A stretch of 64,000 bases of DNA from Candidatus Omnitrophota bacterium (GTDB lineage: Bacteria > Omnitrophota > Gorgyraeia > JABMRN01 > RBG-13-46-9), in assembly GCA_030605095.1 (NCBI GenBank), contig JAUWBJ010000002.1:2355-66354 (forward strand), given 5' to 3'. Position numbers and translations under genes: made by a program. Positions 8,363 through 53,224 of the stretch are shown here, piece after piece. Position 1 is the stretch's first letter; each line of letters starts with the position of its first letter. Under the pieces are notes generated by a model that was not told where the DNA came from, did not search any database, and saw nothing but the letters and a program-made list of their open reading frames with translations.

Positions 8363-10336
8363 ATGAGAACTCAAAAAAATATAGTTTCTAGTTTTAAAAA
8401 AATAAGGAAGGTTAATTTCGGGGCCAGATTCTATAAAGTGGACTTGCATTTTCATACACCGGCATCCGAAGACGCAAGAGGAAAAAACCGCTATAATTTC
8501 AATCCCTACAAAGCTAAGTATCCTACCCATGATTGCGATTTCGAAAAACATTGCGACAAGGTTAAAAAGATTCAGGAAAAAATATTGGCTAATGCAAGAG
8601 AAGTTGCCGCGAAGATAGTCAAGAGATTTGTCGAAGAGAAACTTTCCTTAGTTGCCATAACTGACCATAACGCCATAGGGACATTGTGGCTCGATGCAGG
8701 TTCCAAAGCCGGCATAATGGATTTAAAGGCGCCTACATGGTACGAAATAATTGATGACGAGGCCGAGAAGATAAATGCACAAACAGGCAAAAAGGTTGTA
8801 ACCATACTGCCGGGCGTGGAGATAAGCTGCACAGGGATTCATATTCTGGCGGTTTTTCCGCCACATGAACCTCGGCGGGCGATTCATTTTGTAATATGCG
8901 ACCTTTTGGAAGAAATGGGTTTTGCCATTAAGGAGTGGGGGAAAAATCCTAAGGTCGGTAAAAGAAGCGTAATAGATGCCGTGGATTTAATCCAGCGAAA
9001 AGGCGGAATCGCCATAATCGCACACATAGACGGAAGCGATCAGGCCTTATTGAAACTTTACAAACTTAACAGCGGTGCGATGAAAAACGTGTTTTGTAAC
9101 CAGAAGTTATCGGCCGTTGAGATCGTGAATCCCTCAAAGTTTAGCAGGCAGAATAAAAAGCTCAAAATGACAATAAAGAACTGGATTAAATCGTTAAGGG
9201 TCAAGAGGGAAATTGCCCCAATTGCATATCTTCAGGGTTCGGATGCGCACGATTTAAAATCGATAGGCAAAAGGTTTACTTTTTTAAAGATGACGGTCCC
9301 CTCTTTTACCGGGTTAAAAATCGCGGTGTGGATTCCTGCCTCAAGGGCCAGAATATCTGAACTTCACAAGAGAGTGACAAAAGGTCTCTACATATACGGC
9401 GTGGAGATAAAAAATAAATATTTCGGCAGGCGTTTCATAAGGTTTAACCGTCACCTCAACTGCGTTGCCGGAGAGAAGGAGTCGGGCAAATCGTCCATTT
9501 TCCAATTGATGCAGAAGGCCGTAAGGCCCGATTCCACAAAAATCAAAGGGGACGTTAAACTGTTCGTTGAAAAGGTAATTGATTCAAGACCGCATCATTA
9601 CGCTTTTTGCAATGATAATAAGAGCGATTTTGTAGATTTATATTCAATAAACAAGGATAAAGGAACGGTAGCCAGAATCAATGCGAGCCGGATGAAGGAA
9701 TTGATGATAGAACCCAAATTTTATCATTCGGGTAAAATCGAGAAATTGATTTCCTCCAAGAATGATTTAAACGCATTTTTAATAAAACATTTCGGAAAGC
9801 CCACAAGACGGAATGTCGCTAATTTTAACAGGATGTTTTCTATTCCGAATTTTCTTGAAACAAAAGAAGAACGGCTTCTTTATGCGGAAGGAGATAACGG
9901 CAGATACAAGCTGCACGTAAATATTAACTGGCATACCGGAAAAGCGAAGATGATGGATTTTTTCAAGTTGCGTAATAGTTTGAGAAGAATTGCCATAATT
10001 TCTATGATAGTTATAAGCGGTAGTTTCGGGCCGTTAATAATTGACGCGCCTGAAAGTAATTTTGATAACGAGGATATTGCACATTTTCTCGTTCCTATCA
10101 TCAAGAAGTATAAAGATTTACGGCAAATTATATTATTTACGGGCAATCCAATTTTAGTCGTAAATTCGGACCCGGAAAATTACGTTTTATTAAGCACAAA
10201 AGGTAAAAAATTTGCCGGTATTAACTCGGGTTTTTCCATTGATGAGAAGGATCAGAAGGAGCACCTTATTAACCTGATGGAAGGCGGGTTAAAGTCGTTT
10301 AAAAAGAGGGCAATTAGATATGGAACTAAGAAATGA
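8363..10336 (+). CDS. PHP-domain phosphoesterase fused to a RecF/OLD-type ABC ATPase (candidate defence or repair nuclease-ATPase)
   Basis: PHP motifs HFH (29-31), DH (101-102), H221 and GSDAH (292-296). N-terminal ABC strand plus Walker A (369-377), a signature-like motif (537-549), Walker B and D-loop (IIDAPESNFD, 559-568). The H-loop is altered to LFTGNP. Confidence 0.6.
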   Translation: MRTQKNIVSSFKKIRKVNFGARFYKVDLHFHTPASEDARGKNRYNFNPYKAKYPTHDCDFEKHCDKVKKIQEKILANAREVAAKIVKRFVEEKLSLVAITDHNAIGTLWLDAGSKAGIMDLKAPTWYEIIDDEAEKINAQTGKKVVTILPGVEISCTGIHILAVFPPHEPRRAIHFVICDLLEEMGFAIKEWGKNPKVGKRSVIDAVDLIQRKGGIAIIAHIDGSDQALLKLYKLNSGAMKNVFCNQKLSAVEIVNPSKFSRQNKKLKMTIKNWIKSLRVKREIAPIAYLQGSDAHDLKSIGKRFTFLKMTVPSFTGLKIAVWIPASRARISELHKRVTKGLYIYGVEIKNKYFGRRFIRFNRHLNCVAGEKESGKSSIFQLMQKAVRPDSTKIKGDVKLFVEKVIDSRPHHYAFCNDNKSDFVDLYSINKDKGTVARINASRMKELMIEPKFYHSGKIEKLISSKNDLNAFLIKHFGKPTRRNVANFNRMFSIPNFLETKEERLLYAEGDNGRYKLHVNINWHTGKAKMMDFFKLRNSLRRIAIISMIVISGSFGPLIIDAPESNFDNEDIAHFLVPIIKKYKDLRQIILFTGNPILVVNSDPENYVLLSTKGKKFAGINSGFSIDEKDQKEHLINLMEGGLKSFKKRAIRYGTKK

Positions 10337-17130: not shown

Positions 17131-18212
17131 GTAGATTTATTCACATATAGCGTCTGGGTGGGATAGGCGAATTCAATGCCACGTTTTTCAAATTCTTCCT
17201 TTACGGCAAAATTAATCTCTTGCTGAATATCCATATATTTATTGTAATCCCTGCTCATAACGTAGTAAACAACTTCAATAACGAGGTTGAAATCGCCGTA
17301 TGAAGAGAAATGCGCGCGGTCAAAAGTCGTATCCTTAACGTTTTTTATCACTTTCTCGATTACGCCTGGTATCTCTTTTAACTTTTTAAGGGGCGTCTGG
17401 TATGTAACGCCAAGCCTGAAAACAACTCTCCTTTTTCCCATCCTTTTATAGTTGCGCACCCTGGATGAGGTAAGGTCTTTGTTGGAAAAAACAACCTGCT
17501 CTCCGCCGAGTGAGCGTATGCGCGTGGTCTTAATTCCGATATGCTCGATGGTTCCTAAATAGTCCCCTATTATGATAAAATCTCCGATTTCAAACGGCTT
17601 GTCAAAAAGAATCGCGAAATAACTGAATAAATCGCCCAGAATCGCCTGGGCCGCTAAAGCTATTGCCACGCCTCCTATACCCAGCCCTGCGATAACGGCT
17701 GATATTTTGAATCCCAGATTGTCCAGGAAAAACGTAATCGCCAGACCCCATACAACTACCTTTACGACTTTTAAAATTCCGGTCAGACTGCGCTCTAAAG
17801 TTTTATCTTTTCCTCTTTTTGCCGAATAAATATCAAACCCGTAATCCGTAAGGGCTATGGCTAAACGCGCTATAAACATCACCAGAATAGCCATCATTAC
17901 AGTGTTGATGCCTTTTAAGAGCAGCGGATTTAAAGTCAGGGTATTTACGCTTATATATAAAACGCCGAAATACGCTAAAGGAAGGGCTATATTTTGAACA
18001 ATTCCAATCAGAAAGTCATCCAGGGTGGTAACGGTTTTCTCCGCCCATTTTTTTAAGCGTTTTAGAAGAAAATGGCGGAATATTTTAATACCGACATAAC
18101 CTGCAAAAAACAGAAGAACGCATATCAAATAATCCGCGATACGGTTTCCGAGAAAAACATTTTCCATAATATCCTGAAACATTTTATCCTCCGCCGGATG
18201 TGGCCCGGACAA
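17127..18212 (-). CDS. Mechanosensitive ion channel, MscS family
   Basis: TM helices followed by the conserved MscS beta-domain (...GDLFSYFAILFDKPFEIGDFI...). Confidence 0.85.
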   Translation of the reverse strand: MSGPHPAEDKMFQDIMENVFLGNRIADYLICVLLFFAGYVGIKIFRHFLLKRLKKWAEKTVTTLDDFLIGIVQNIALPLAYFGVLYISVNTLTLNPLLLKGINTVMMAILVMFIARLAIALTDYGFDIYSAKRGKDKTLERSLTGILKVVKVVVWGLAITFFLDNLGFKISAVIAGLGIGGVAIALAAQAILGDLFSYFAILFDKPFEIGDFIIIGDYLGTIEHIGIKTTRIRSLGGEQVVFSNKDLTSSRVRNYKRMGKRRVVFRLGVTYQTPLKKLKEIPGVIEKVIKNVKDTTFDRAHFSSYGDFNLVIEVVYYVMSRDYNKYMDIQQEINFAVKEEFEKRGIEFAYPTQTLYVNKST

Positions 18213-20148
18213 GTTTTTCGAGCCGCAGCCACTGGTTGTCGATGTCTCTTTGTATTTCTTCTAAGACGTGCTTGTTTCCTTCTTTAAAGAGATGCTTGAA
18301 ACGGCCTTGTGTTCTTAAAAATTCTACAACAGGTTTTCTCTCTTTAGGCTTGTAGGTGAAATGCCAGATTCCTTTTTCAATTTCAATTAACGGCCAATAG
18401 CCTGTCTCTACGGCTAACTTGGAAATTTTCACCGTGTCTTCCTGCGGATAACGCCATCCGCGATGGCACAATGACAAGACATTTAAGAATGCGGGCCCCT
18501 CTACGGCAAACGCTTTCTGTGATTTCGTTACAAGGTCATTCCAGTGCGAAATCGAACCCTGGGCAACGTAAGGGATATTGTGCGCCGCAACAATGGCGGT
18601 GAGGTCCTTTCGTAGTTGGGGTTTGCCATAACTTGCTTTACCGGCAGGGGCTGTCGTTGTAGATGCGCCTTTTGGAGTTGCGCTGGAACGTTGTACCCCG
18701 GTATTTTCGTAGGCTTCGTTATTATAGCAGACATAGACGAAATTATGTCCGCGTTCAAATGCGCCGGACATAGACTGAAGTCCGATGTCGTAAGAATTTC
18801 CGCTTAATGATATTTTCCCGTTTCTTTTCGTAATAACAGTATGGTTCTTCTTTAATTGCGGACAATAAACGAAGCCCTTATAATCTTCTAGAAACACTTG
18901 TTGTTTGTTGCCGTAAAGCCTTCTTCTCGAATATAACTTATGATTTAAATAATTAAACCCTATACCTATTCTATAAACCCCGTCTTCTTTTCTTTGAGAA
19001 ATACTACAGTTTTTACCCAATTTTAAAACCAGCTCCACCATATTATTCATGAGTTCTTTCGAAGCTGTAATAAACTTAATGTGATAACTCCTGCGATTTT
19101 TTTGTTTAGTTATGGAGCCGTCCCCTTCTATCAGCGAACCGAATATTTCTTTAAGATAGTGCTTATTAAGTGATAATACCCATTTTGGTATTTTTTTATT
19201 TTTAAATCCCTTGCCGCATTCTCTTTCCAAATATTCGTATATTTGTTTTGATTGGAAGTCAACAGATCTGTTGCATTTAAACGGAGAAAGACCGAGATCT
19301 TTTAATAGTCTATAGATCTTTTCTTTCTTATCCTTATTTGACTGGTATATGCGTATAAGATAGCCGGATTTGCTTTTATATAAACATCCTTCAGTAATAT
19401 ACCAACCTAAAAATTTTAACCATTTTTTAGTATCAAATTTTGAAAATTCCTTTTGATATCTATATTTAGGAATCTTTGGAACTTCTATTACCATCCACAG
19501 CGTATCGTTTCCATCCCCATACCAATTGAACTTTCTCGAAAAAGCTGTTTTGTATCTTTTTAATAAATCGACGCCTTTGATAAACTCCCATTTACCCTTA
19601 TACCACATAGGCACATTATGATTCGGCGTTATTAAAAAGTCTATAAAACGGCTTTTGCCTCTTATCATTCTACCTTCATATGGATATTTATGCAGTTTTT
19701 CATTCTCCTGCAATTCCAAAATATTGGTTTCGGGATTTACCGACCAAATTTTTTCTCCTACTTTTATATTTTTTATATTTCTAAATCCGTTTTCGGTAAA
19801 TATTTCTGTATCTTCTGAATAGCAACCGCCATCGCCGCCGAAGGCAACGAACTTTATATCTTTAGTAATTTTACCTTTTTTCTTCAAAGCGCGGTAGGCT
19901 GTTTCTGCGCCACTTATTGTCGCAGCCACGTTTTCAAAAGCGTTATGTATAAAAGGAACGTTCCACGCCGTATACGGATATATAGTGGTAGCGACTTCTA
20001 AACATCCTGTCGCGGCTCCTGCTACGATAGGCGACGTTGTTCCCATAAGAATCTGCCTCACGGCGATAGAAGCTCCACAACCCGAGCAAAGCCTATGTCC
20101 CGGAGTCAATCTTTCCGGTATCTTTGATAGCTCTTTAATATTTGCCAT
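18184..20148 (-). CDS. porB: Pyruvate:ferredoxin oxidoreductase beta subunit (TPP-binding) interrupted by an in-frame intein
   Basis: N-extein ...FVAFGGDGG and C-extein SYDIGLQSMSGAFERGHNFVYVCYNNEAYENTGVQRSSATP match PorB. About 343 aa are inserted between them. Confidence 0.8.
   Translation of the reverse strand: MANIKELSKIPERLTPGHRLCSGCGASIAVRQILMGTTSPIVAGAATGCLEVATTIYPYTAWNVPFIHNAFENVAATISGAETAYRALKKKGKITKDIKFVAFGGDGGCYSEDTEIFTENGFRNIKNIKVGEKIWSVNPETNILELQENEKLHKYPYEGRMIRGKSRFIDFLITPNHNVPMWYKGKWEFIKGVDLLKRYKTAFSRKFNWYGDGNDTLWMVIEVPKIPKYRYQKEFSKFDTKKWLKFLGWYITEGCLYKSKSGYLIRIYQSNKDKKEKIYRLLKDLGLSPFKCNRSVDFQSKQIYEYLERECGKGFKNKKIPKWVLSLNKHYLKEIFGSLIEGDGSITKQKNRRSYHIKFITASKELMNNMVELVLKLGKNCSISQRKEDGVYRIGIGFNYLNHKLYSRRRLYGNKQQVFLEDYKGFVYCPQLKKNHTVITKRNGKISLSGNSYDIGLQSMSGAFERGHNFVYVCYNNEAYENTGVQRSSATPKGASTTTAPAGKASYGKPQLRKDLTAIVAAHNIPYVAQGSISHWNDLVTKSQKAFAVEGPAFLNVLSLCHRGWRYPQEDTVKISKLAVETGYWPLIEIEKGIWHFTYKPKERKPVVEFLRTQGRFKHLFKEGNKHVLEEIQRDIDNQWLRLEKLVRATSGGG
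18796..19824 (-). mobile_element. Intein with LAGLIDADG homing-endonuclease domain, inserted in porB
   Basis: Block A CYSEDTEIFT, block B TPNH, LAGLIDADG-like motifs LGWYITEGC and LIEGDGS, ends ...ISLSGN followed by +1 Ser. Confidence 0.7.
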
Positions 20149-20196: not shown

Positions 20197-21375
20197 CTAA
20201 TTTCGAACTCCTAAATAGTTAACGAGTGCTTTAATCCTTCCTGTTTTCTTTATTTCCTCTAACTCTTTATATACCTTTTTTATGTCTTCCGGGAAGATGT
20301 CGCGGCCACCGAGGCCGAATATGTAATCTATAACCGGCGGTCTCTTTTGTGATTCATAAAGCGCTGCTTTAACTTCGCTGAACAAAGGCCCGCCTTCACC
20401 CGAGAACGAATCGCTTCTATCCAGGACAGCTACGGCTTTTAAATTCGAGAGTGCCTTTATAATTCTTTCCTTCGGGAACGGCCTGAAAAATCTCGGCTTG
20501 AGAAGGCCTGCCTTTACCCCTTTTTTTCTTAATTCATCAACCACGCCCTTCGCCGTCCCTGCCGTTGAGCTCAAGACAACAATCGCTACCTCGGCATCAC
20601 TCAGCTTGTATTCTTCAACCAGGTCGTGCGACTTATTAAATGTTTTATTAAATTCCGCCAGGACCGCCGGAATAGTTTTTAAGGCATCTTTCATCGCCTC
20701 TGCTTCCTGGCGTTTATGTTCGAAATAAAAATCCTGCAAATCCAGGGGACCGTATGTTACCGGGTTTTCCACATCGAGAAGGCTGTGTTCCAGAGTATAT
20801 TCGCCTATAAACTTTTTAACCTTGTCGTCAGGAAATGTACTTATACCTTCTACGGCGTGGCTTGTTATAAAACCATCCTGGCAGACCATAACGGGCAGGA
20901 GAATCTTTTTGTGCTCTGCTATTTTTACGGCAACAATGATATTTTCGTAAACCTCCTCGGCATTTTCGGAATAAAGCTGAATCCAGCCCGAGTCCCTTGC
21001 GCCCATTGTATCGGAGTGGTCGCAATGTATGTTTATGGGCCCTGACAAGGCTCTATTCACGACAGGCATAACAATGGGAAGGCGTAAAGACGCCGTTATA
21101 TAAACAATTTCCCACATAAGGGCAAGGCCGTTTGCCGACGTGGCGGTCATTGTCCGCGCACCGCTTGCGGCAGAGCCGACGCACGCGCTCATCGCGCTAT
21201 GTTCGGACTCAACCGGAATCATTTCTGTCTTTACCCTGCCGTCAGCCGCGAACTGGGAAAAATTCATAACAATCTCTGTCTGCGGCGTAATAGGATAAGC
21301 CGCGACGACATCCGGCTCAATCTGTCTCATTGCCTCAGCAGCAGCCTGGTCTCCCGTTAATGCGGTTAATTTCAT
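20197..21375 (-). CDS. porA: Pyruvate:ferredoxin oxidoreductase alpha subunit
   Basis: 392 aa. PorA-like N-terminus (YPITPQTEI...), in operon order with porD and porB. Confidence 0.85.
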   Translation of the reverse strand: MKLTALTGDQAAAEAMRQIEPDVVAAYPITPQTEIVMNFSQFAADGRVKTEMIPVESEHSAMSACVGSAASGARTMTATSANGLALMWEIVYITASLRLPIVMPVVNRALSGPINIHCDHSDTMGARDSGWIQLYSENAEEVYENIIVAVKIAEHKKILLPVMVCQDGFITSHAVEGISTFPDDKVKKFIGEYTLEHSLLDVENPVTYGPLDLQDFYFEHKRQEAEAMKDALKTIPAVLAEFNKTFNKSHDLVEEYKLSDAEVAIVVLSSTAGTAKGVVDELRKKGVKAGLLKPRFFRPFPKERIIKALSNLKAVAVLDRSDSFSGEGGPLFSEVKAALYESQKRPPVIDYIFGLGGRDIFPEDIKKVYKELEEIKKTGRIKALVNYLGVRN

Positions 21376-21650
21376 CCCTTCTCCATTTTAATACACTTTA
21401 CCGGGCAGATGCTCGCGCATATCCCGCAACCCTTGCAGTAGTCATAGTCAAATCCTTCCATTTTTCCGTCTTTTACAAGAACGGAGGAATCGGGGCAGTA
21501 TATCCAGCATTGAAGGCAATTTATGCATTTGGGTTTATCCACAACCGGCTTAAAAGTCCGCCATGAACCTGTCTTATATTCCCTGGCAGTACCGCCTTTA
21601 TCTATAATTCCGGCTATCGGAATCTCTTTCCAGCCTTTTTTCTTTTTCAC
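21372..21650 (-). CDS. porD: Pyruvate:ferredoxin oxidoreductase delta subunit (2x[4Fe-4S] ferredoxin)
   Basis: CINCLQCWIYCP and CKGCGICASICP cluster motifs. GTG start. Confidence 0.8.
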   Translation of the reverse strand: MKKKKGWKEIPIAGIIDKGGTAREYKTGSWRTFKPVVDKPKCINCLQCWIYCPDSSVLVKDGKMEGFDYDYCKGCGICASICPVKCIKMEKG

Positions 21651-21764
21651 CCCGCCCTTCCTTTTCTTTTGATGCCAATCATTGTCTTTATTTTTGCTAA
21701 ACTACTCCCCCTCTTCCTTATGTAATTTGTTTTAATCTTTTTATTAGGAAGGGCGGGGTTCATC
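21647..21764. repeat. Inverted-repeat intergenic element, copy A (CACCCCGCCCTTCC ... GGAAGGGCGGGGTTCATC)
   Basis: 13-bp terminal inverted repeats around about 90 bp, with homology to copy B at 28934-29047. The left arm provides AGGAAGG SD plus the GTG start of porD. The right arm overlaps the porG stop. Confidence 0.5.
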
Positions 21765-22332
21765 CTGTCTTTGTTTCCTTGAAGGCGCGTTTTATCGCTT
21801 TTATGTTCGCTTCGGTTTTTTCTTCGCCGAGCTTTTTAAGGAATTTCTTCCGCACTTTTTTTTCCAGCGCTTCAACCGGCACAATCGGTTTAATCTTCAA
21901 AAGAGCGCCCAGCATCGGCGTATTGGGCATCGGCATACCGAGTATCTCCAGTGAAATTTTTGTCGCATCGCAGGTGGCAACTTTTCCTTTTTTGTATCTC
22001 GCCTTCCAGCGCACGCTATCAACTGTCTCGGTCGTATTCACAATCAAGATACCGCTCTCGTCCAGGCCATCGGCAACATCAACAGTCTCCAGTAATGTCG
22101 GGTCTATCACAACAACAATATCGGGATTTGTTACAGGGGAATGGATATTTATCGGCCGGTCGCTGATTCTGGTATAGGCGCGAATAGGCGCGCCTGCCCT
22201 TTCAGGGCCGTATTCGGGAAAGGCCTGAATAGACTTACCTGTATCCAGGGCCGCTTCAGCCAAAAACTGGGCGGCTGTCTTGGCGCCCTGGCCTCCCCGG
22301 CCATGCCACCTTATTTCTAATAAATCCTTCAT
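21760..22332 (-). CDS. porG: Pyruvate:ferredoxin oxidoreductase gamma subunit
   Basis: RGGQGAKTAAQ motif typical of POR gamma subunits. Confidence 0.85.
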   Translation of the reverse strand: MKDLLEIRWHGRGGQGAKTAAQFLAEAALDTGKSIQAFPEYGPERAGAPIRAYTRISDRPINIHSPVTNPDIVVVIDPTLLETVDVADGLDESGILIVNTTETVDSVRWKARYKKGKVATCDATKISLEILGMPMPNTPMLGALLKIKPIVPVEALEKKVRKKFLKKLGEEKTEANIKAIKRAFKETKTG

Positions 22333-26188: not shown

Positions 26189-28936
26189 TTATATTTCTTC
26201 TTTAAGTCTCATAACCTCTTGTCTTATTCCTAAGGTTATGGCTTCATAGTCATCTTTAGCGCCTAGTCTCGATCCTTCTTTTTTAAGTTCTTCTGCGTTA
26301 TGCGGTCTTCCGAAAACAATCGTAACAGGGTGGGGTCGTCTGGGAAAACGATTTGTTCTTGGCCAGGATTCATAGGAACCTTTGATATACACAGGAACCA
26401 ATCGAATGCTCAGTTCTTTTGCCAATATCCCGACTCCTTTTTTGAATTCTTTAACTTCTCCGTCAATTGACCTTGCTCCTTCGGGAAAGATGCAAGCTGT
26501 TTTGCCATTTCTCAAAATATAAGCACAAGCCTGTATCGCATCTATTAATTGCGCGCCAGGGTCGATAGGAATTATTCTGATTAATTTTACGATATTTCTA
26601 ATTATTGGAACTTCGAAATAGGCTCTATAACCAAGGAAGAACATATGTTTTTTTAACCATCGAGGTAGGGCTGCAACAATTAGGAACCCGTCCAAATAAC
26701 TACCGTGATTGGGGCAGAGAATAAATGCTTTGTTCGAAGGTAAATTTTTTATTCCAAAAACTTTAACCTGCCAGATAAGTTTAAATATTATATATAACAT
26801 CCCAGAGACTAATAGCGTGAAAAACCGCGCTATCCAACCGGGAAATAAATCTATTTTTTCAATTATATCTTTGGCTGGATTGGTCTTTAAAATATCACTC
26901 CATAAAGATAATCGAGTCTGGATTGCTGAGACTTCCTCGGTCCTTGGTTCTTTCTTTAAAATCAATTTCTCAATTTCAAGAATAAGTTCTCTTACTATGA
27001 AAATTTTAACCATTACAGAATCCGGTATGTCAATCTTTAAAATCTTTTCTAATGCAACCATTAATTCCGCGCGCCCTAACGAATCAAGGCCAAGATCGAT
27101 TTCCAAGTGGTCGTCCAACCGGATTTGCCTCTCTAAATCCGTTTCTTTACTTAAGGTTTTTATTATTTTCTTGGCAATTCCCGAAGAGAGAATTTTAAGG
27201 TCTTCACCTGTAAGGGAAATCTCCTCATCTATCTTTCTCAACCCCACGCCCATAAGTTCATCTAAATATCTATTCTTAATTTCAAATCTTTTTAACTTCC
27301 CTAAACGTGTCTGGGGTAAATCCTCACTTGTAACAACAAAGCCCATAATCCGTTTGTAGGGAGGGTATTGTTTAGACAGATTCTCCAAATCCCACTTAAT
27401 CATTCCATAAATATTAACCTCGCCAACCTTGCGGTAATAGTCCAAATCAGGCACAATGACCGCCATAAGCTTTTCCTCTTCTCTTTTACCAGTTGCTAAT
27501 ACGCATAATCCTTTAATAAAAGGGCTCTTGGCATAATGGGATTCCACCTCTTCGGGAGATATATTCTTTCCCGAGCTTAACACAATCAACTCTTTCTTCC
27601 TTCCCGTAAGACGGAGATACCCCTCTTTGTCCAGATAACCCAAATCTCCAGAATAGAACCAATTATCCTTTAAAACCTTTCTCGTCTCTTCGACTTCTTT
27701 ATAGTAGCCTCTCATAACATTAGGGCCTTTGATTGCCACCTCGCCTACGCCGTATTCGTCAGGTTCAGCAATTCTTAAGTTCACATCTGGAATTACTTTC
27801 CCCACAGAGCCTATTTTTTGTTTTTTCAATGGATTAAAAGTTGCTACCGGCGATGTTTCAGTAAGTCCGTATCCTTCCAGGATTGTAAAACCGATTTTCA
27901 CAAGAAACCTTGCTGCCTCTTCATTTAACTTAGCACCGCCACAAGCAAAAAATCTTAAATTTTTTCCGAAGGCACGGTGAATCTTTGACAATGCCAGCTT
28001 GGCCAAGTTAATTCCCGTAAACTTTCTCACCAACCACAATATCTCTATAAACCCTAAAAGGGAGAGTCTCATCAAAAACGGGACTTTCTTTATTCCATCT
28101 ACTATATGCTTATAAAACATATAAAAAAGCTGAGGTACTCCCGTTAATATCGTCACACCTGTCTTTCTCATACACGCAAGCAATTCCTCACTCTTAAGGC
28201 TTGAAATGTAGGTAATCTTGCTTTGAGAAAAAAGTGGTATAACGAGGGTCACCATAAATGGAAATGAATGATGCAGCGGTAATATAGACAGAACATTATC
28301 TTTATCTGAAAAGAGTTTTAATTTATCAATACTTTGAGAATTGGAATAAAAATTTTCATGGGTTAACATAACACCTTTTGGCCTGCCGGTAGTGCCTGAG
28401 GTATAAAGAATAGAGGCGATATCCTGGGGAGATGCCTCTGGCATAGATGTTATGGACTTTAAATCTGATACGGCAGATATCGTTTCCGAAAAAGAAATAA
28501 TTTCTTCGGACGATTTTTCAATGTCGAGGGCTATGATTTGTTGTAATGAAGGCACGCTATTAGTGAAGCCCGTAAATAACGAAAGTAATTTACTGGAGGT
28601 AAAGGCTACCTTGCTTTCTGAATCACTTAGAAAAAATTTTATCTCTTCTTGTCCGGATTGAGGATCAAGAGGGATAGCTATGGCCCCTCGAAGCATAATG
28701 CCAAAGTAGATCATTCCCCATTCAGGCCTGTTTTCCAGAACAATAGCGACTCTATCGCCTTTTTTTATCCCCGCTTTAAGTAAAGAATGTGCAACAGATT
28801 GAGAGACCCCGTAAAGCTCTTTATAGGTATACTTGACATAGACATCTTCTTTTTTCATTTGCATAACAATTCTATCAGGAAATTGATCAACTATTTCTCT
28901 TAATTTACCATGTAGAGTATATAATTTCTTATTCAC
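26189..28936 (-). CDS. Tri-domain acyl-ACP synthetase / lysophospholipid acyltransferase (AMP-binding + PP-binding + PlsC domains; Aas-like)
   Basis: AMP-binding motifs (YTSGTTGRPKG), carrier-domain serine (LGLDSLGRAELM), and the C-terminal HX4D acyltransferase motif (NHGSYLDG). GTG start is supplied by IR element copy B. Confidence 0.7.
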   Translation of the reverse strand: MNKKLYTLHGKLREIVDQFPDRIVMQMKKEDVYVKYTYKELYGVSQSVAHSLLKAGIKKGDRVAIVLENRPEWGMIYFGIMLRGAIAIPLDPQSGQEEIKFFLSDSESKVAFTSSKLLSLFTGFTNSVPSLQQIIALDIEKSSEEIISFSETISAVSDLKSITSMPEASPQDIASILYTSGTTGRPKGVMLTHENFYSNSQSIDKLKLFSDKDNVLSILPLHHSFPFMVTLVIPLFSQSKITYISSLKSEELLACMRKTGVTILTGVPQLFYMFYKHIVDGIKKVPFLMRLSLLGFIEILWLVRKFTGINLAKLALSKIHRAFGKNLRFFACGGAKLNEEAARFLVKIGFTILEGYGLTETSPVATFNPLKKQKIGSVGKVIPDVNLRIAEPDEYGVGEVAIKGPNVMRGYYKEVEETRKVLKDNWFYSGDLGYLDKEGYLRLTGRKKELIVLSSGKNISPEEVESHYAKSPFIKGLCVLATGKREEEKLMAVIVPDLDYYRKVGEVNIYGMIKWDLENLSKQYPPYKRIMGFVVTSEDLPQTRLGKLKRFEIKNRYLDELMGVGLRKIDEEISLTGEDLKILSSGIAKKIIKTLSKETDLERQIRLDDHLEIDLGLDSLGRAELMVALEKILKIDIPDSVMVKIFIVRELILEIEKLILKKEPRTEEVSAIQTRLSLWSDILKTNPAKDIIEKIDLFPGWIARFFTLLVSGMLYIIFKLIWQVKVFGIKNLPSNKAFILCPNHGSYLDGFLIVAALPRWLKKHMFFLGYRAYFEVPIIRNIVKLIRIIPIDPGAQLIDAIQACAYILRNGKTACIFPEGARSIDGEVKEFKKGVGILAKELSIRLVPVYIKGSYESWPRTNRFPRRPHPVTIVFGRPHNAEELKKEGSRLGAKDDYEAITLGIRQEVMRLKEEI

Positions 28937-51757: not shown

Positions 51758-53224
51758 TCACCCTTTTAACACGCAAAGTGGTCGCATACGAGCTACCCGC
51801 TTCGATATACCTGCTTCATGAACGACATGAACAACTTCAGTTACATTCTTATAAGCTTCCGGTGCCTCTTCGGCTAATGTGCCGCGGCCCGCAGCCATCA
51901 CTGATATTCCTTTCTCGGCAAGTTCCCCGGAAATAGACCTTCCCCGACACGCGGAGATAGCTGCTTTTCTTGACATAAGCCGGCCTGCACCGTGGCAGGT
52001 GCTAAAAAACGTTTCTTCGGCTTTCTGGGTTCCGACTAATAAAAACGAATGCCTTCCCATATCACCCGGTATTATAACGGGCTGGCCTATTTCTTTATAC
52101 TTTGACGGTAAATCAGGATGGCCTGGAGGGAAAGCGCGTGTCGCGCCTTTTCTGTGCACGCATAAAAGTTTTTCTTTTTCGTCAATGTTATATTTTTCAA
52201 ATTTTGCTATATTATGGGCGACATCGTAAATCAAGTCCATTCCTAAATCTTTAGAGCTCCTGTTAAAAAATTTCTCAAAAACCTCACGCACAAGATGCAT
52301 AAGGCACTGTCTATTATTCCAGGCATAGTTTGCCGCGCACTTCATCGCGCCAATGTAAGCTTGCCCTTCCGGCGACCTCACCGGAGCGCAGGCAAGTTGT
52401 CTATCAGGAACAGAAATTCCATATTTACTTAGCACGCCAATCATGCCCTTTGAATACTCATCGCATATCTGATGACCAAAACCGCGCGAACCGGAATGTA
52501 TCATTATTGTAATCTGGCCTTTTTCAATATTAAAAATTTCCGCACATTTTTCGTCATAGATTTCGTCTACAAGCTGAATTTCAATAAAATGATTTCCGCT
52601 TCCGAGCGTCCCTGATTGCTTTTTTCCTCTCTGATACGCTCTATCGGAAACCTTCGACGGATCTGCGCCTTGCATTTGTCCGTTTTCTTCGGTGCACTCC
52701 AGATCTTCTTTTGTACCAAATCCTTTACTGACAGCCCATTTTGCGCCGTTTGTTAATATTTTTCTCTCTTCATTAACGTCAACTCTGATTTTTCCTTCGG
52801 AGCCGAGACCGGCTGGGACGTGGTTGTAGAGGGCAGTGACTAAATCTTTAATTCGCGGCTTTATTTCTTTTTCAGTCAGGTTTGTTTTTACAAGCCGGAC
52901 GCCACAATTGATATCGTAACCCACGCCGCCTGGCGTAATTACGCCTCCATCTTCGATATCAGTTGCCACAACGCCGCCTATGGGTAGCCCATAACCCCAG
53001 TGAATGTCAGGCATTGCCAATGAATACTTTACAATTCCCGGAAAGTGCGCCGCATTCGCGACTTGTTGCGGCGCTCTGTCGCGTTCTATACTCTCAAGCA
53101 AATTCTTGTCAGCGTAAATTACGCCAGGCACTCGCATACCCGGCATATAGCTCTTAGGTATGCACCATCTGTAATCGTCTATTTTTTCTAACCGGCCCTG
53201 CCAGATTTGCATATTACACGTCAA
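51758..53224 (-). CDS. rtcB: RNA-splicing ligase RtcB
   Basis: GGVGYDINCG, HSGSRGFGHQ, CHGAGR motifs. Confidence 0.9.
   Translation of the reverse strand: MTCNMQIWQGRLEKIDDYRWCIPKSYMPGMRVPGVIYADKNLLESIERDRAPQQVANAAHFPGIVKYSLAMPDIHWGYGLPIGGVVATDIEDGGVITPGGVGYDINCGVRLVKTNLTEKEIKPRIKDLVTALYNHVPAGLGSEGKIRVDVNEERKILTNGAKWAVSKGFGTKEDLECTEENGQMQGADPSKVSDRAYQRGKKQSGTLGSGNHFIEIQLVDEIYDEKCAEIFNIEKGQITIMIHSGSRGFGHQICDEYSKGMIGVLSKYGISVPDRQLACAPVRSPEGQAYIGAMKCAANYAWNNRQCLMHLVREVFEKFFNRSSKDLGMDLIYDVAHNIAKFEKYNIDEKEKLLCVHRKGATRAFPPGHPDLPSKYKEIGQPVIIPGDMGRHSFLLVGTQKAEETFFSTCHGAGRLMSRKAAISACRGRSISGELAEKGISVMAAGRGTLAEEAPEAYKNVTEVVHVVHEAGISKRVARMRPLCVLKG

What the first reader, a model, noticed from the sequence alone, without database searches (positions are those of the whole stretch)
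18796..19824. LAGLIDADG intein inserted at the TPP-binding GDGG motif of pyruvate:ferredoxin oxidoreductase beta subunit
PorB reads ...FVAFGGDGG|CYSEDTEIFT...(343 aa)...KISLSGN|SYDIGLQSMSG... The insert has intein block A (Cys1, DTEI), block B (TPNH), two LAGLIDADG-like motifs (LGWYITEGC, LIEGDGS), a terminal Asn and a +1 Ser. It lacks the usual penultimate His (Gly-Asn instead). Inteins sit mostly in replication and repair proteins, so one in a central-metabolism oxidoreductase at a cofactor-binding loop is notable. POR activity would depend on splicing.
Basis: partly seen in the sequence, partly recalled or inferred. Interest (0 to 1): 0.6.

Follow-up and report, generated by a model that had tools for sequence, protein, structure and literature searches.

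The report
Mobile intein splitting the PorB enzyme
A self-splicing, mobile protein element (an intein with its own homing endonuclease) sits exactly in the cofactor-binding loop of a central anaerobic enzyme, pyruvate:ferredoxin oxidoreductase subunit beta, of an Omnitrophota bacterium; the claim is real, but it is a new example of a known kind of element, not a new kind.

Summary
Confirmed. Window 18796-19824 (minus strand) is a precise 1029-nt, 343-aa in-frame insertion in porB (18184-20148), between GDGG and SYDIG of the TPP/Mg2+ motif. Syntenic orthologous loci in close Omnitrophota relatives hold a 311-aa PorB (95% identical) with an empty site. The in-silico spliced gene aligns with them without any gap.

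The insert folds (AF2 pLDDT 91.9) like full-length intein/LAGLIDADG endonucleases (TliVMA, PI-PkoII, PI-SceI). It keeps Cys1, block B TxxH, both endonuclease acidic residues, terminal Asn and Ser+1.

It looks mobile. GC is 0.32 against 0.48 in the host gene. Distribution is sporadic across Omnitrophota and DPANN archaea. Between related carriers the intein has lower dS than the exteins, and both its domains are under purifying selection (dN/dS 0.04-0.11).

The missing penultimate His is a family trait. The intein belongs to a very large, poorly annotated family (about 3,500 clusters at 50% identity) with Cys1, Cys at block F position 4 and a Gly-Asn end. That family also sits in other metabolic enzymes and phage proteins.

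PorB carries inteins at two further sites in the same motif. I found no publication on PorB inteins. Splicing and homing are inferred, not shown.

The parts
18184..20148 (-). porB precursor gene: 654 aa, 75.1 kDa. It encodes N-extein + intein + C-extein.
   Evidence: ORF. NCBIfam PorB model matched in two stretches; masses.
19825..20148 (-). N-extein, 108 aa, ending ...KFVAFGGDGG. The Asp of GDG is the Mg2+ ligand of the TPP motif.
   Evidence: It aligns with PFOR beta 9bt4_C and with D. africanus PFOR 1b0p at GGDG.
18796..19824 (-). PorB-a intein: 343 aa, 40.9 kDa. A HINT splicing domain (about residues 1-100 and 305-343) has a LAGLIDADG endonuclease domain (about 125-300) nested inside it.
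   Evidence: Exactly 1029 nt are absent from orthologues L015, L016 and L017. GC is 0.317 against 0.476 in the exteins.
19822..19824 (-). Cys1, the N-terminal splicing nucleophile (block A).
   Evidence: Invariant in alignment A1, and present in 162 of 163 family copies.
19618..19629 (-). Block B, T66-P-N-H69 (TxxH motif).
   Evidence: H69 is invariant and T66 nearly invariant. Both are present in 33 of 33 copies from other hosts.
19390..19392 (-). Glu145, the acidic residue of LAGLIDADG motif 1 (FLGWYITEG).
   Evidence: nearly invariant. LAGLIDADG_3 scores 49.4 bits against a cut-off of 22.5.
19120..19122 (-). Asp235, the acidic residue of LAGLIDADG motif 2 (SLIEGDGS).
   Evidence: G234-D235-G236 are invariant.
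18841..18864 (-). Block F, VY-C321-PQLKKN-H328. Cys occupies position F:4 (usually Asp). The block F His probably assists Asn cyclisation.
   Evidence: C321 and P322 are invariant, H328 nearly invariant; the Cys aligns with the Asp of PI-PkoII (YVYDLSVEDN). F:4 is Cys in 26 of 28 copies.
18796..18801 (-). Block G end, Gly342-Asn343. The penultimate residue is Gly rather than His; the terminal Asn is the cyclising residue.
18793..18795 (-). Ser+1, the first C-extein residue and nucleophile for transesterification. It is Thr in most intein-free alleles.
   Evidence: Ser occurs in 31 of 34 carriers; Thr occurs in 102 of 118 intein-free PorBs.
18184..18795 (-). C-extein, 203 aa plus stop codon, starting SYDIGLQSMSG... 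It includes the YNN Mg2+-binding part of the TPP motif.
20197..22332 (-). The rest of the operon: porA (20197-21375), porD ferredoxin-like subunit (21372-21650) and porG (21760-22332).
   Evidence: POR_N/PFOR_II, Fer4_21 and POR domains. One search shows the same gene order in the intein-free genome CP070780.1.

Best explanation
This is a mobile, class-1-type intein carrying an intact LAGLIDADG homing endonuclease. I call it the 'PorB-a' intein. It lies in frame in porB, two residues after the Mg2+-ligand Asp of the GDG...NN thiamine-pyrophosphate motif.

**Proposed splicing path (inferred).** The gene is translated as a 75-kDa precursor that probably cannot bind TPP. The intein then removes itself in four steps:
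1. Cys1 makes an N-S acyl shift, helped by block B Thr66 and His69.
2. The N-extein is transferred to Ser+1.
3. Asn343 cyclises. The block F His328 probably assists, because the penultimate residue is Gly.
4. An O-N shift joins the exteins into a 311-aa, 34-kDa PorB reading ...GGDGG-SYDIG...

**Proposed homing (inferred).** The freed 41-kDa intein would act as a homing endonuclease. It would cut intein-less porB alleles at the conserved GGDGG/TYDIG coding DNA and be copied in by repair.

**Status of each step.** Shown here: the precise insertion, the fold, conservation of the catalytic residues, and the population-genetic signs of mobility. Inferred only: actual splicing, actual DNA cleavage, and inactivity of the precursor.
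For: **Precise insertion.**
- The extein-only sequence matches 311-aa intein-free Omnitrophota PorBs at up to 95% identity, 311 of 311 aligned with no gap.
- Loci L015, L016 and L017 show the same gene order (dnaX-recR-DUF7847-porGDAB-mscS-helicase) with an empty site.
- The in-silico spliced gene is 936 nt, the same length as the gene in L015 and L016, at 88.5% nt identity without a gap.
- The extein-only sequence aligns seamlessly with solved PFOR beta 9bt4_C (E 1e-83), oxalate oxidoreductase beta 5c4i_C and PFOR 1b0p.

**Intein identity.**
- The AF2 model has pLDDT 91.9.
- The best Foldseek matches are TliVMA, PI-PkoII, PhoVMA, PI-SceI and PI-PfuI, with E 5e-18 to 1e-12.
- A PDB profile search gives E 4e-13 to PI-PkoII, and weaker hits to the KlbA intein and a BIL domain for the N-terminal splicing region.

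**Catalytic residues.** C1, H69, D235, C321 and N343 are invariant in 21 sequences that are as little as 32% identical to the window's intein; E145 and H328 are nearly invariant.

**Function maintained.** dN/dS is 0.07-0.09 for the whole intein, 0.04-0.06 for the HINT part and 0.06-0.11 for the endonuclease part.

**Mobility.**
- Intein GC is below extein GC in all 11 carriers.
- Between carriers L001-L003, intein dS is 0.51-0.67 while extein dS is 1.66-2.69.
- The window's intein is more similar to archaeal copies than its exteins are (66.5% against 48.7% for L004).
- The window's exteins are closest to intein-free genomes, not to other carriers.
- Carriers span Omnitrophota and Nanoarchaeota, Woesearchaeota, Diapherotrites/Iainarchaeum and Micrarchaeia.

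**Precedent.** A penultimate-Gly intein, the Bethlehem gp51 RDF intein, splices fully, and mutating its Gly to His slows it (PMC5050341).
Against: - No experiment shows splicing or cleavage.
- Curated intein splicing profiles fall below their thresholds.
- Two normally important assisting residues are non-canonical: F:4 is Cys, not Asp, and G:6 is Gly, not His. The chemistry may therefore differ from the textbook class 1 path.
- dS estimates (NG86) are rough, are saturated for comparisons with the window itself, and could be biased by the AT-rich composition of the intein.
- The lower identity in the 144 nt downstream of the site (77% against 94%) is only suggestive of co-conversion.
Confidence: 0.85

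Rival explanations
1. The intein is a conditional, redox-gated switch. Cys1 and the invariant Cys321 at block F position 4 lie next to each other in the splicing active site. Under oxidising conditions they would form a disulfide, holding the oxygen-labile POR as an inactive precursor. Splicing would resume on reduction.
For: - C1 and C321 are invariant in the PorB-a family, and the Cys1 / F:4-Cys pairing is near-universal in the wider family.
- In class 1 inteins the F:4 residue contacts the position-1 side chain (PMC10663303).
- Disulfide traps that involve catalytic Cys residues are documented. One is the MoaA intein of P. abyssi, which also sits in an oxygen-labile enzyme (PMC10663303, PMC4031507).
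- The M. smegmatis DnaBi1 intein acts as an oxidative stress sensor (PMC6195587).
Against: - The same Cys pair occurs in this family in phage portal, RNA polymerase, methyltransferase and glycosyltransferase hosts. It is therefore a family trait, not an adaptation to POR.
- No experimental data exist.
Confidence: 0.15
2. The intein uses a class-3-like path. Cys321 at F:4, rather than or in addition to Cys1, attacks the N-terminal junction and forms a block F branched thioester before transfer to Ser+1.
For: - F:4 Cys is the obligate nucleophile of class 3 inteins, and Ser/Thr at +1 is typical of them (PMC2807308).
- Three WCT inteins in InBase also had an N-terminal Ser or Cys (PMC2807308).
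- Here F:4 Cys is invariant and +1 is Ser.
Against: - The class 3 signature is otherwise absent. B:12 is Val/Ile/Leu/Met, never Trp. G:5 is Ser/Asn/Cys, never Thr in the PorB-a inteins or in a 33-sequence sample from other hosts and viral contigs. Cys1 is invariant and the canonical TxxH block B is kept.
Confidence: 0.1
3. The intein is decayed and no longer splices, or it only cleaves. In that case this porB copy is non-functional and the organism relies on another oxidoreductase.
For: - The penultimate His and the F:4 Asp are both missing.
- Curated splicing-domain profiles are below threshold.
- Only 64 kb of the genome was seen, so a second POR cannot be excluded.
Against: - The same non-canonical residues are conserved across thousands of clusters, which is incompatible with decay.
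- dN/dS is 0.04-0.11 in the intein.
- The exteins are intact, 95% identical to intein-free orthologues, and sit in an intact porGDAB operon.
Confidence: 0.04
4. The insert is a native PorB domain or an assembly chimera, not an insertion element.
For: None found.
Against: - The 118 newly retrieved close PorB homologues in the extein-only search are 304-324 aa and lack it.
- The same precursor sequence is present in an independently assembled Logan contig.
- Homologous copies lie at the identical site on many unrelated contigs.
Confidence: 0.01

Closest known systems
Large archaeal intein/LAGLIDADG homing endonucleases: PI-PkoII (2cw7), the TliVMA and PhoVMA inteins (7qsu/7qss/7qst), PI-PfuI (1dq3) and PI-SceI (1vde)
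   Same: - The architecture is the same: a HINT splicing domain split by a two-motif LAGLIDADG endonuclease.
- These are the best structural and sequence matches.
- Cys1, block B TxxH, a terminal Asn and a nucleophilic +1 residue are all shared.
   Different: - The host is PorB, at the TPP motif.
- Sequence identity is only 12-17%.
- F:4 is Cys instead of Asp, and the penultimate residue is Gly instead of His.
Mycobacteriophage Bethlehem gp51 (RDF) intein and other class 1 inteins without a penultimate His (PMC5050341). The C. eugametos ClpP and M. jannaschii PEP synthase inteins are cited there as Wang & Liu 1997 and Chen et al. 2000.
   Same: - It is a class 1 intein with a penultimate Gly.
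- The RDF intein splices efficiently, and its block F His is proposed to take over the role of the missing His.
   Different: - I did not test whether the RDF intein belongs to the same sequence family.
- The host protein and the organism are different.
Pyrococcus abyssi MoaA intein (redox trap; PMC10663303)
   Same: - It is an intein inside an oxygen-labile, cofactor-dependent metabolic enzyme of an anaerobe.
- Catalytic Cys1 is available for disulfide trapping.
   Different: - In MoaA the partner Cys lies in the N-extein. Here the candidate partner is the intein's own F:4 Cys.
- Redox control here is only a hypothesis.
Class 3 (WCT) inteins, for example MP-Be DnaB, MchDnaB1 and MsmDnaBi1 (PMC2807308, PMC7664689, PMC6195587)
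   Same: - Cys at block F position 4.
- Ser/Thr at +1.
- Links to phages (viral contigs carry relatives).
   Different: - This intein has Cys1.
- It lacks Trp at B:12 and Thr at G:5.
- It keeps the canonical TxxH block B.
- It fails three of the four defining features.
PorB site-b and site-c inteins found here in other metagenomic PorBs (for example P0028, P0039, P0031)
   Same: - The host protein is the same.
- The TPP/Mg2+ motif is the same: site c lies 3 residues before, and site b 5 residues after, the Mg-binding Asn.
- The host phylum is the same for many (Omnitrophota).
   Different: - They belong to different intein clades with canonical Asp at F:4. Site b ends VVHN|T and site c ends ISN|C.
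- Many site-b copies are mini-inteins without an endonuclease (463-540 aa proteins).

Membership tests
Intein (HINT-domain protein-splicing element, class 1) | An in-frame insertion absent from orthologues, with exteins that join seamlessly into a conserved protein. | tested here: met
   The insertion is exactly 1029 nt. The extein-only sequence aligns 311 of 311 residues without a gap to P0141 at 95% identity, and the syntenic loci have an empty site.
Intein (HINT-domain protein-splicing element, class 1) | Cys/Ser at position 1, block B TxxH, a C-terminal Asn, and Cys/Ser/Thr at +1. | tested here: met
   C1, H69 and N343 are invariant and T66 is nearly invariant. The +1 residue is Ser in 31 of 34 copies and Thr in 3 of 34.
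Intein (HINT-domain protein-splicing element, class 1) | Penultimate His (G:6) and Asp at F:4. These are common assisting residues, but not obligatory. | tested here: not met
   G:6 is Gly (Met in a subclade) and F:4 is Cys. Functional inteins without His at G:6 are known (PMC5050341).
Intein (HINT-domain protein-splicing element, class 1) | HINT fold. | tested here: met
   The AF2 model has pLDDT 91.9. The top 16 Foldseek PDB matches are all full-length inteins. Mini-inteins (6rpq, 6frg, 6zgq) also match.
Intein (HINT-domain protein-splicing element, class 1) | A score above the curated cut-off of the splicing-domain profiles (Pfam Hint_2 / Intein_splicing, TIGR01445). | tested here: not met
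   Hint_2 scores 12.9 against 28.4 bits, and intein_Nterm scores 13.1 against 24.5 bits. The family is divergent from the seed sets.
Intein (HINT-domain protein-splicing element, class 1) | Autocatalytic excision with extein ligation. | not testable with these tools
   Needs expression followed by SDS-PAGE or MS.
LAGLIDADG homing endonuclease (two-motif, intein-nested) | Two LAGLIDADG helices, each ending in an acidic residue, with an alpha-beta-beta-alpha-beta-beta-alpha fold. | tested here: met
   LAGLIDADG_3 scores 49.4 against a cut-off of 22.5 bits. E145 is nearly invariant and D235 invariant; matches to I-DmoI, I-SceI and I-Tsp061I with E 1e-7 to 1e-5.
LAGLIDADG homing endonuclease (two-motif, intein-nested) | Site-specific cleavage of the intein-less allele. 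| not testable with these tools
   Only indirect support is available: purifying selection on the endonuclease domain (dN/dS 0.06-0.11) and sporadic distribution.
Class 3 (WCT) inteins | No Cys/Ser/Thr at position 1. | tested here: not met
   Cys1 is invariant.
Class 3 (WCT) inteins | Trp at B:12. | tested here: not met
   B:12 is Val here, and V/I/L/M/Y/H/Q across the family; it is never Trp.
Class 3 (WCT) inteins | Cys at F:4. | tested here: met
Class 3 (WCT) inteins | Thr at G:5. | tested here: not met
   G:5 is Ser here, and Ser/Asn/Cys/Gln in the PorB-a set and the 33-sequence sample. In the wider family Thr occurs in 16 of 163 copies.
PorB, beta subunit of four-subunit pyruvate:ferredoxin oxidoreductase | TPP-binding PP domain with the GDG...NN motif; best match to PorB; encoded together with porA, porD and porG. 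| tested here: met
   9bt4_C at E 1e-83; operon domains; synteny.
PorB, beta subunit of four-subunit pyruvate:ferredoxin oxidoreductase | A score above the NCBIfam equivalog cut-off (NF008819, 405 bits), which supports pyruvate specificity. | tested here: not met
   The extein-only sequence scores 368.9 bits (best family, one stretch 11-301). PorA scores 522 against 550. Substrate specificity is therefore likely but not certain.

The most novel reading that the evidence does not exclude
The PorB-a intein would represent a very large, largely unannotated intein family of at least about 3,500 clusters at 50% identity. The family is defined by Cys1, Cys at block F position 4 and a Gly-Asn C-terminus.

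On this reading, its active-site Cys pair gives it a chemistry distinct from textbook class 1. That could be an internal Cys1-Cys(F:4) redox switch, or a relay of the N-extein through a second thioester.

In PorB this would make maturation of an oxygen-labile, central anaerobic enzyme depend on the cell's redox state. The family's spread into metabolic enzymes of Omnitrophota and DPANN archaea would be carried by viruses.
Probability: 0.15. Interest if true: 0.7.

Novelty: new member of a known kind. Interest (0 to 1): 0.42.

Why it matters
**Host range of inteins.** This shows that inteins invade the thiamine-pyrophosphate/Mg2+ loop of a core anaerobic carbon-metabolism enzyme, at three separate sites. 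That extends the rule that inteins target the most conserved catalytic motifs beyond the ATPase and replication proteins that dominate surveys (PMC4760082).

**Gaps in annotation.** The intein belongs to a big family that standard splicing-domain profiles miss. Intein censuses of uncultivated bacteria, DPANN archaea and phages are therefore probably undercounting. Genome annotations label such genes 'hypothetical', and here the start codon is also miscalled.

**Transfer across domains of life.** The presence of closely related copies in Omnitrophota and in DPANN archaea, while the host genes are only about 40-57% identical, is a clear case of intein movement between bacteria and archaea.

**A testable mechanism.** The conserved trio of Cys1, Cys at F:4 and Gly at G:6 is a concrete variant of intein chemistry that can be tested. 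It could serve as a redox-controllable splicing module.

Tried and rejected
1. **Inteins nearly fixed in Omnitrophota PorB.** The first database search suggested this. Searching with the extein-only sequence returned 118 newly retrieved intein-free PorBs of up to 95% identity among the 120 listed. The first result was a bias of word-based candidate selection, so I rejected the idea.
2. **Class 3 (WCT) membership.** Rejected, because three of the four defining features fail.
3. **Direct MAFFT alignment of precursor DNA with intein-free genes.** This gave a gap of the right size (1029 nt) but shifted it by 86 nt. I replaced it with an ungapped comparison of the in-silico spliced gene.
4. **Literature searches for a PorB/POR intein**. 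No paper describes one. The supplement of the 2015 census is not held, and InBase itself could not be queried. 'Not published' is therefore not proven. One JGI record (P0108) is auto-labelled '.../intein/homing endonuclease'.
5. **Papers not held in the library.** Nicastri 2013 (internal disulfide switch) and Tori & Perler 2011 could not be read.
6. **Cluster look-up.** This gave no organism names. Taxonomy came from genome contigs titles instead.
7. **Other copies in the window.** A profile scan found no second copy of the intein family.
8. **Cys1-Cys321 distance.** I could not measure it, because the model coordinates are not exposed.
Full report
**1. The observation**

The minus-strand ORF at 18184-20148 encodes 654 aa. 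It reads ...KFVAFGGDGG | CYSEDTEIFT...(343 aa)...KISLSGN | SYDIGLQSMSG.... The insert is window 18796-19824, which is 1029 nt.

- NCBIfam's PorB model matches in two pieces that abut at the insert.
- Pfam finds TPP_enzyme_C plus LAGLIDADG_3 (E 5e-13).
- GC falls from 0.43-0.52 in the flanks to 0.28-0.35 inside the insert. Over the whole elements, the intein is 0.317 and the exteins 0.476.
- Upstream lie porA, porD and porG.

**2. Is it an insertion?**

Yes, and this is decisive.

- A search with the extein-only sequence returns mostly 304-324-aa PorBs of Candidatus Omnitrophota. The best is 95% identical and aligns 311 of 311 residues without a gap.
- The genes for P0141 and P0142 lie in the same gene order as in the window: dnaX-recR-DUF7847-porG-porD-porA-porB-mscS-DEAD helicase-acyltransferase. 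One of them is in a complete 1.43-Mb genome, CP070780.1.
- The in-silico spliced gene is 936 nt. So are the genes in L015 and L016, at 88.5% nt identity with no gap. The difference is exactly 1029 nt.
- The extein-only protein also aligns straight through the junction with solved PFOR beta (9bt4_C, E 1e-83), oxalate oxidoreductase beta (5c4i_C) and D. africanus PFOR (1b0p).
- The same precursor sequence occurs in an independent Logan assembly, so it is not a chimera.

**3. Is it an intein?**

- A profile of 21 site-a inserts (alignment A1) hits PI-PkoII at E 4e-13. With its N-terminal region it also hits the KlbA intein and a bacterial intein-like domain.
- AlphaFold2 run on A1 gives pLDDT 91.9 and pTM 0.91.
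- The top 16 Foldseek PDB matches are full-length inteins with nested LAGLIDADG endonucleases: TliVMA, PI-PkoII, PhoVMA, PI-SceI and PI-PfuI. Free LAGLIDADG enzymes and mini-inteins follow.
- In sequences as little as 32% identical to the window's intein, these residues are invariant or nearly so: C1, T66, H69 (block B TxxH), E145, D235 (the LAGLIDADG acids), C321-P322, N327-H328 (block F) and N343.
- The +1 residue is Ser in 31 of 34 carriers but Thr in 102 of 118 intein-free alleles.
- Curated splicing-domain profiles stay below threshold, so the family is divergent from the seed sets.

**4. Unusual catalytic make-up**

Block F aligns as VY-C-PQLKKN-H. In PI-PkoII the equivalent stretch is YVY-D-LSVEDN, so the Cys sits where the Asp normally is. 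From my own knowledge, the Asp-to-His spacing of seven residues also matches the Mxe GyrA intein. Position F:4 is therefore Cys. The penultimate residue is Gly.

[quoted passage not shown] The other class 3 features are absent here: Cys1 is present, B:12 is Val, and G:5 is Ser. I therefore do not file it as class 3.

A penultimate-Gly class 1 intein, the Bethlehem gp51 RDF intein, splices completely. The block F His is thought to substitute for the missing His (PMC5050341). Here H328 is nearly invariant.

**5. Mobility**

- The window's exteins are closest to intein-free genomes (88-94% nt). They are only 65-79% identical to other carriers.
- Between carriers L001-L003, intein dS (0.51-0.67) is 3-4 times lower than extein dS (1.66-2.69). 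dN/dS is 0.04-0.11 in both the splicing and the endonuclease parts.
- Intein GC is below extein GC in all 11 carriers.
- Site-a PorB carriers are three Omnitrophota lineages plus Nanoarchaeota, Woesearchaeota, Diapherotrites/Iainarchaeum and Micrarchaeia. For L004, L007 and L009 the intein is clearly more similar to the window's copy than the exteins are, for example 66.5% against 48.7% for L004.
- The 144 nt just downstream of the site are 77% identical to L015, against 94% further on. This is suggestive of a co-conversion tract but is not proof.

Together this fits recent acquisition by homing or horizontal transfer, with a still-functional endonuclease.

**6. Position in the enzyme**

GDG...NN is the TPP diphosphate/Mg2+ motif. 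From my own knowledge of Chabriere et al. 1999, the aligned residues in D. africanus PFOR are the Mg2+ ligands Asp963, Thr991 and Val993.

The intein sits two residues after the Asp. A 41-kDa insert at that point should prevent cofactor binding. That POR activity depends on splicing is a reasonable inference, but it is untested.

The extein-only protein scores best on the PorB model, though under its equivalog cut-off (369 against 405 bits).

**7. Wider findings**

- *Three intein sites in PorB.* Metagenomic PorBs carry inteins at three sites in the same motif: site a (GDGG|S), site c (YV|CYNN) and site b (YMN|TG). Double carriers exist, both a+b and c+b. The site-b and site-c inteins are canonical and unrelated.
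- *Size of the site-a family.* The A1 profile finds 3,569 clusters at 50% identity with E <= 1e-30, and 9,104 with E <= 1e-10. Among 163 full-length copies, 162 start with Cys, 153 have a penultimate Gly and 159 end in Asn. The +1 residue is Ser in 108, Thr in 37 and Cys in 18. F:4 is Cys in 26 of 28 aligned copies in a 33-sequence sample from other hosts and viral contigs.
- *Hosts of the family.* They include a Glu_synthase-domain protein, ornithine cyclodeaminase/mu-crystallin, phage RNAP-beta-like proteins, a Mu-like portal, glycosyltransferases, a D12 methyltransferase, RuvC, PrimPol, NrdD, ThyX and a C1A protease. Many of these proteins hold 2-3 copies.
- *Viral carriers.* Viral contigs carry full-length relatives, which suggests a route between domains of life.

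**8. Novelty and score**

I found no paper on an intein in POR/PorB. One JGI record is machine-labelled as such. InBase and the census supplement could not be checked.

The element is a new member of a known kind: a new host and insertion site. It comes from a poorly annotated family with a non-canonical but conserved active-site composition.

Inteins in metabolic enzymes have precedent, for example MoaA (PMC10663303); other metabolic hosts known to me are SufB and PEP synthase. Splicing here is not demonstrated. I rate interest as moderate, at 0.42.

The most novel reading that the evidence does not exclude is redox-gated or relay chemistry through the Cys1/Cys(F:4) pair. I give it a probability of about 0.15.

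Noticed in passing
Related proteins P0028, P0039, P0031, P0066, P0111, P0010, P0016 and P0057 (not in the window): PorB proteins from metagenomes carry inteins at two further sites in the same TPP/Mg2+ motif. Site b is YMN|TG, where many copies are mini-inteins. Site c is YV|CYNN. Some proteins hold two inteins (a+b or c+b).
   Followed up: partly
Alignment A1 profile; P0259-P0401; L010-L013; L019-L034: The site-a intein belongs to a very large family, with 3,569 clusters at 50% identity at E <= 1e-30. Its signature is Cys1, Cys at block F position 4 and a Gly-Asn end. It is found in many non-replicative hosts, including a Glu_synthase-domain protein, OCD/mu-crystallin, GT1 glycosyltransferases, a Mu-like portal and phage RNAP-beta-like proteins, and it occurs in viral contigs. 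Many host proteins hold 2-3 copies. Standard Pfam and TIGRFAM splicing-domain models miss it.
   Followed up: partly
Window 20047-20148 (minus strand), the 5' end of porB: The public gene call for this protein (P0001, 620 aa) starts 34 codons downstream of the ATG at 20148. Intein-free orthologues start MANIKELSK..., as the longer ORF does, so the deposited annotation is probably N-terminally truncated.
   Followed up: partly
Window 18652-18795 (minus strand), the first 144 nt of the C-extein: Nucleotide identity to the intein-free orthologue L015 drops to 77% here, against 94% in the rest of the C-extein. Identity to other intein carriers rises slightly. This may be a co-conversion tract left by homing.
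   Followed up: partly
Window 20077-20112 (minus strand), nt 37-72 of porB: Over this stretch nucleotide identity to L015, L016 and L017 is only 55-58%, although the protein is conserved there. This is unexplained.
   Followed up: no
Window 8363-10336 (+): A 657-aa ORF with no Pfam match at E <= 1e-5.
   Followed up: no
Window 51758-53224 (-): An RtcB tRNA ligase of 488 aa. RtcB is a frequent intein host elsewhere, but this copy has no intein. A scan with the A1 profile finds no second copy of this intein family anywhere in the 64 kb.
   Followed up: yes
Window 26189-28936 (-): A 915-aa fusion of an AMP-binding domain, a carrier (PP-binding) domain and an acyltransferase domain.
   Followed up: no
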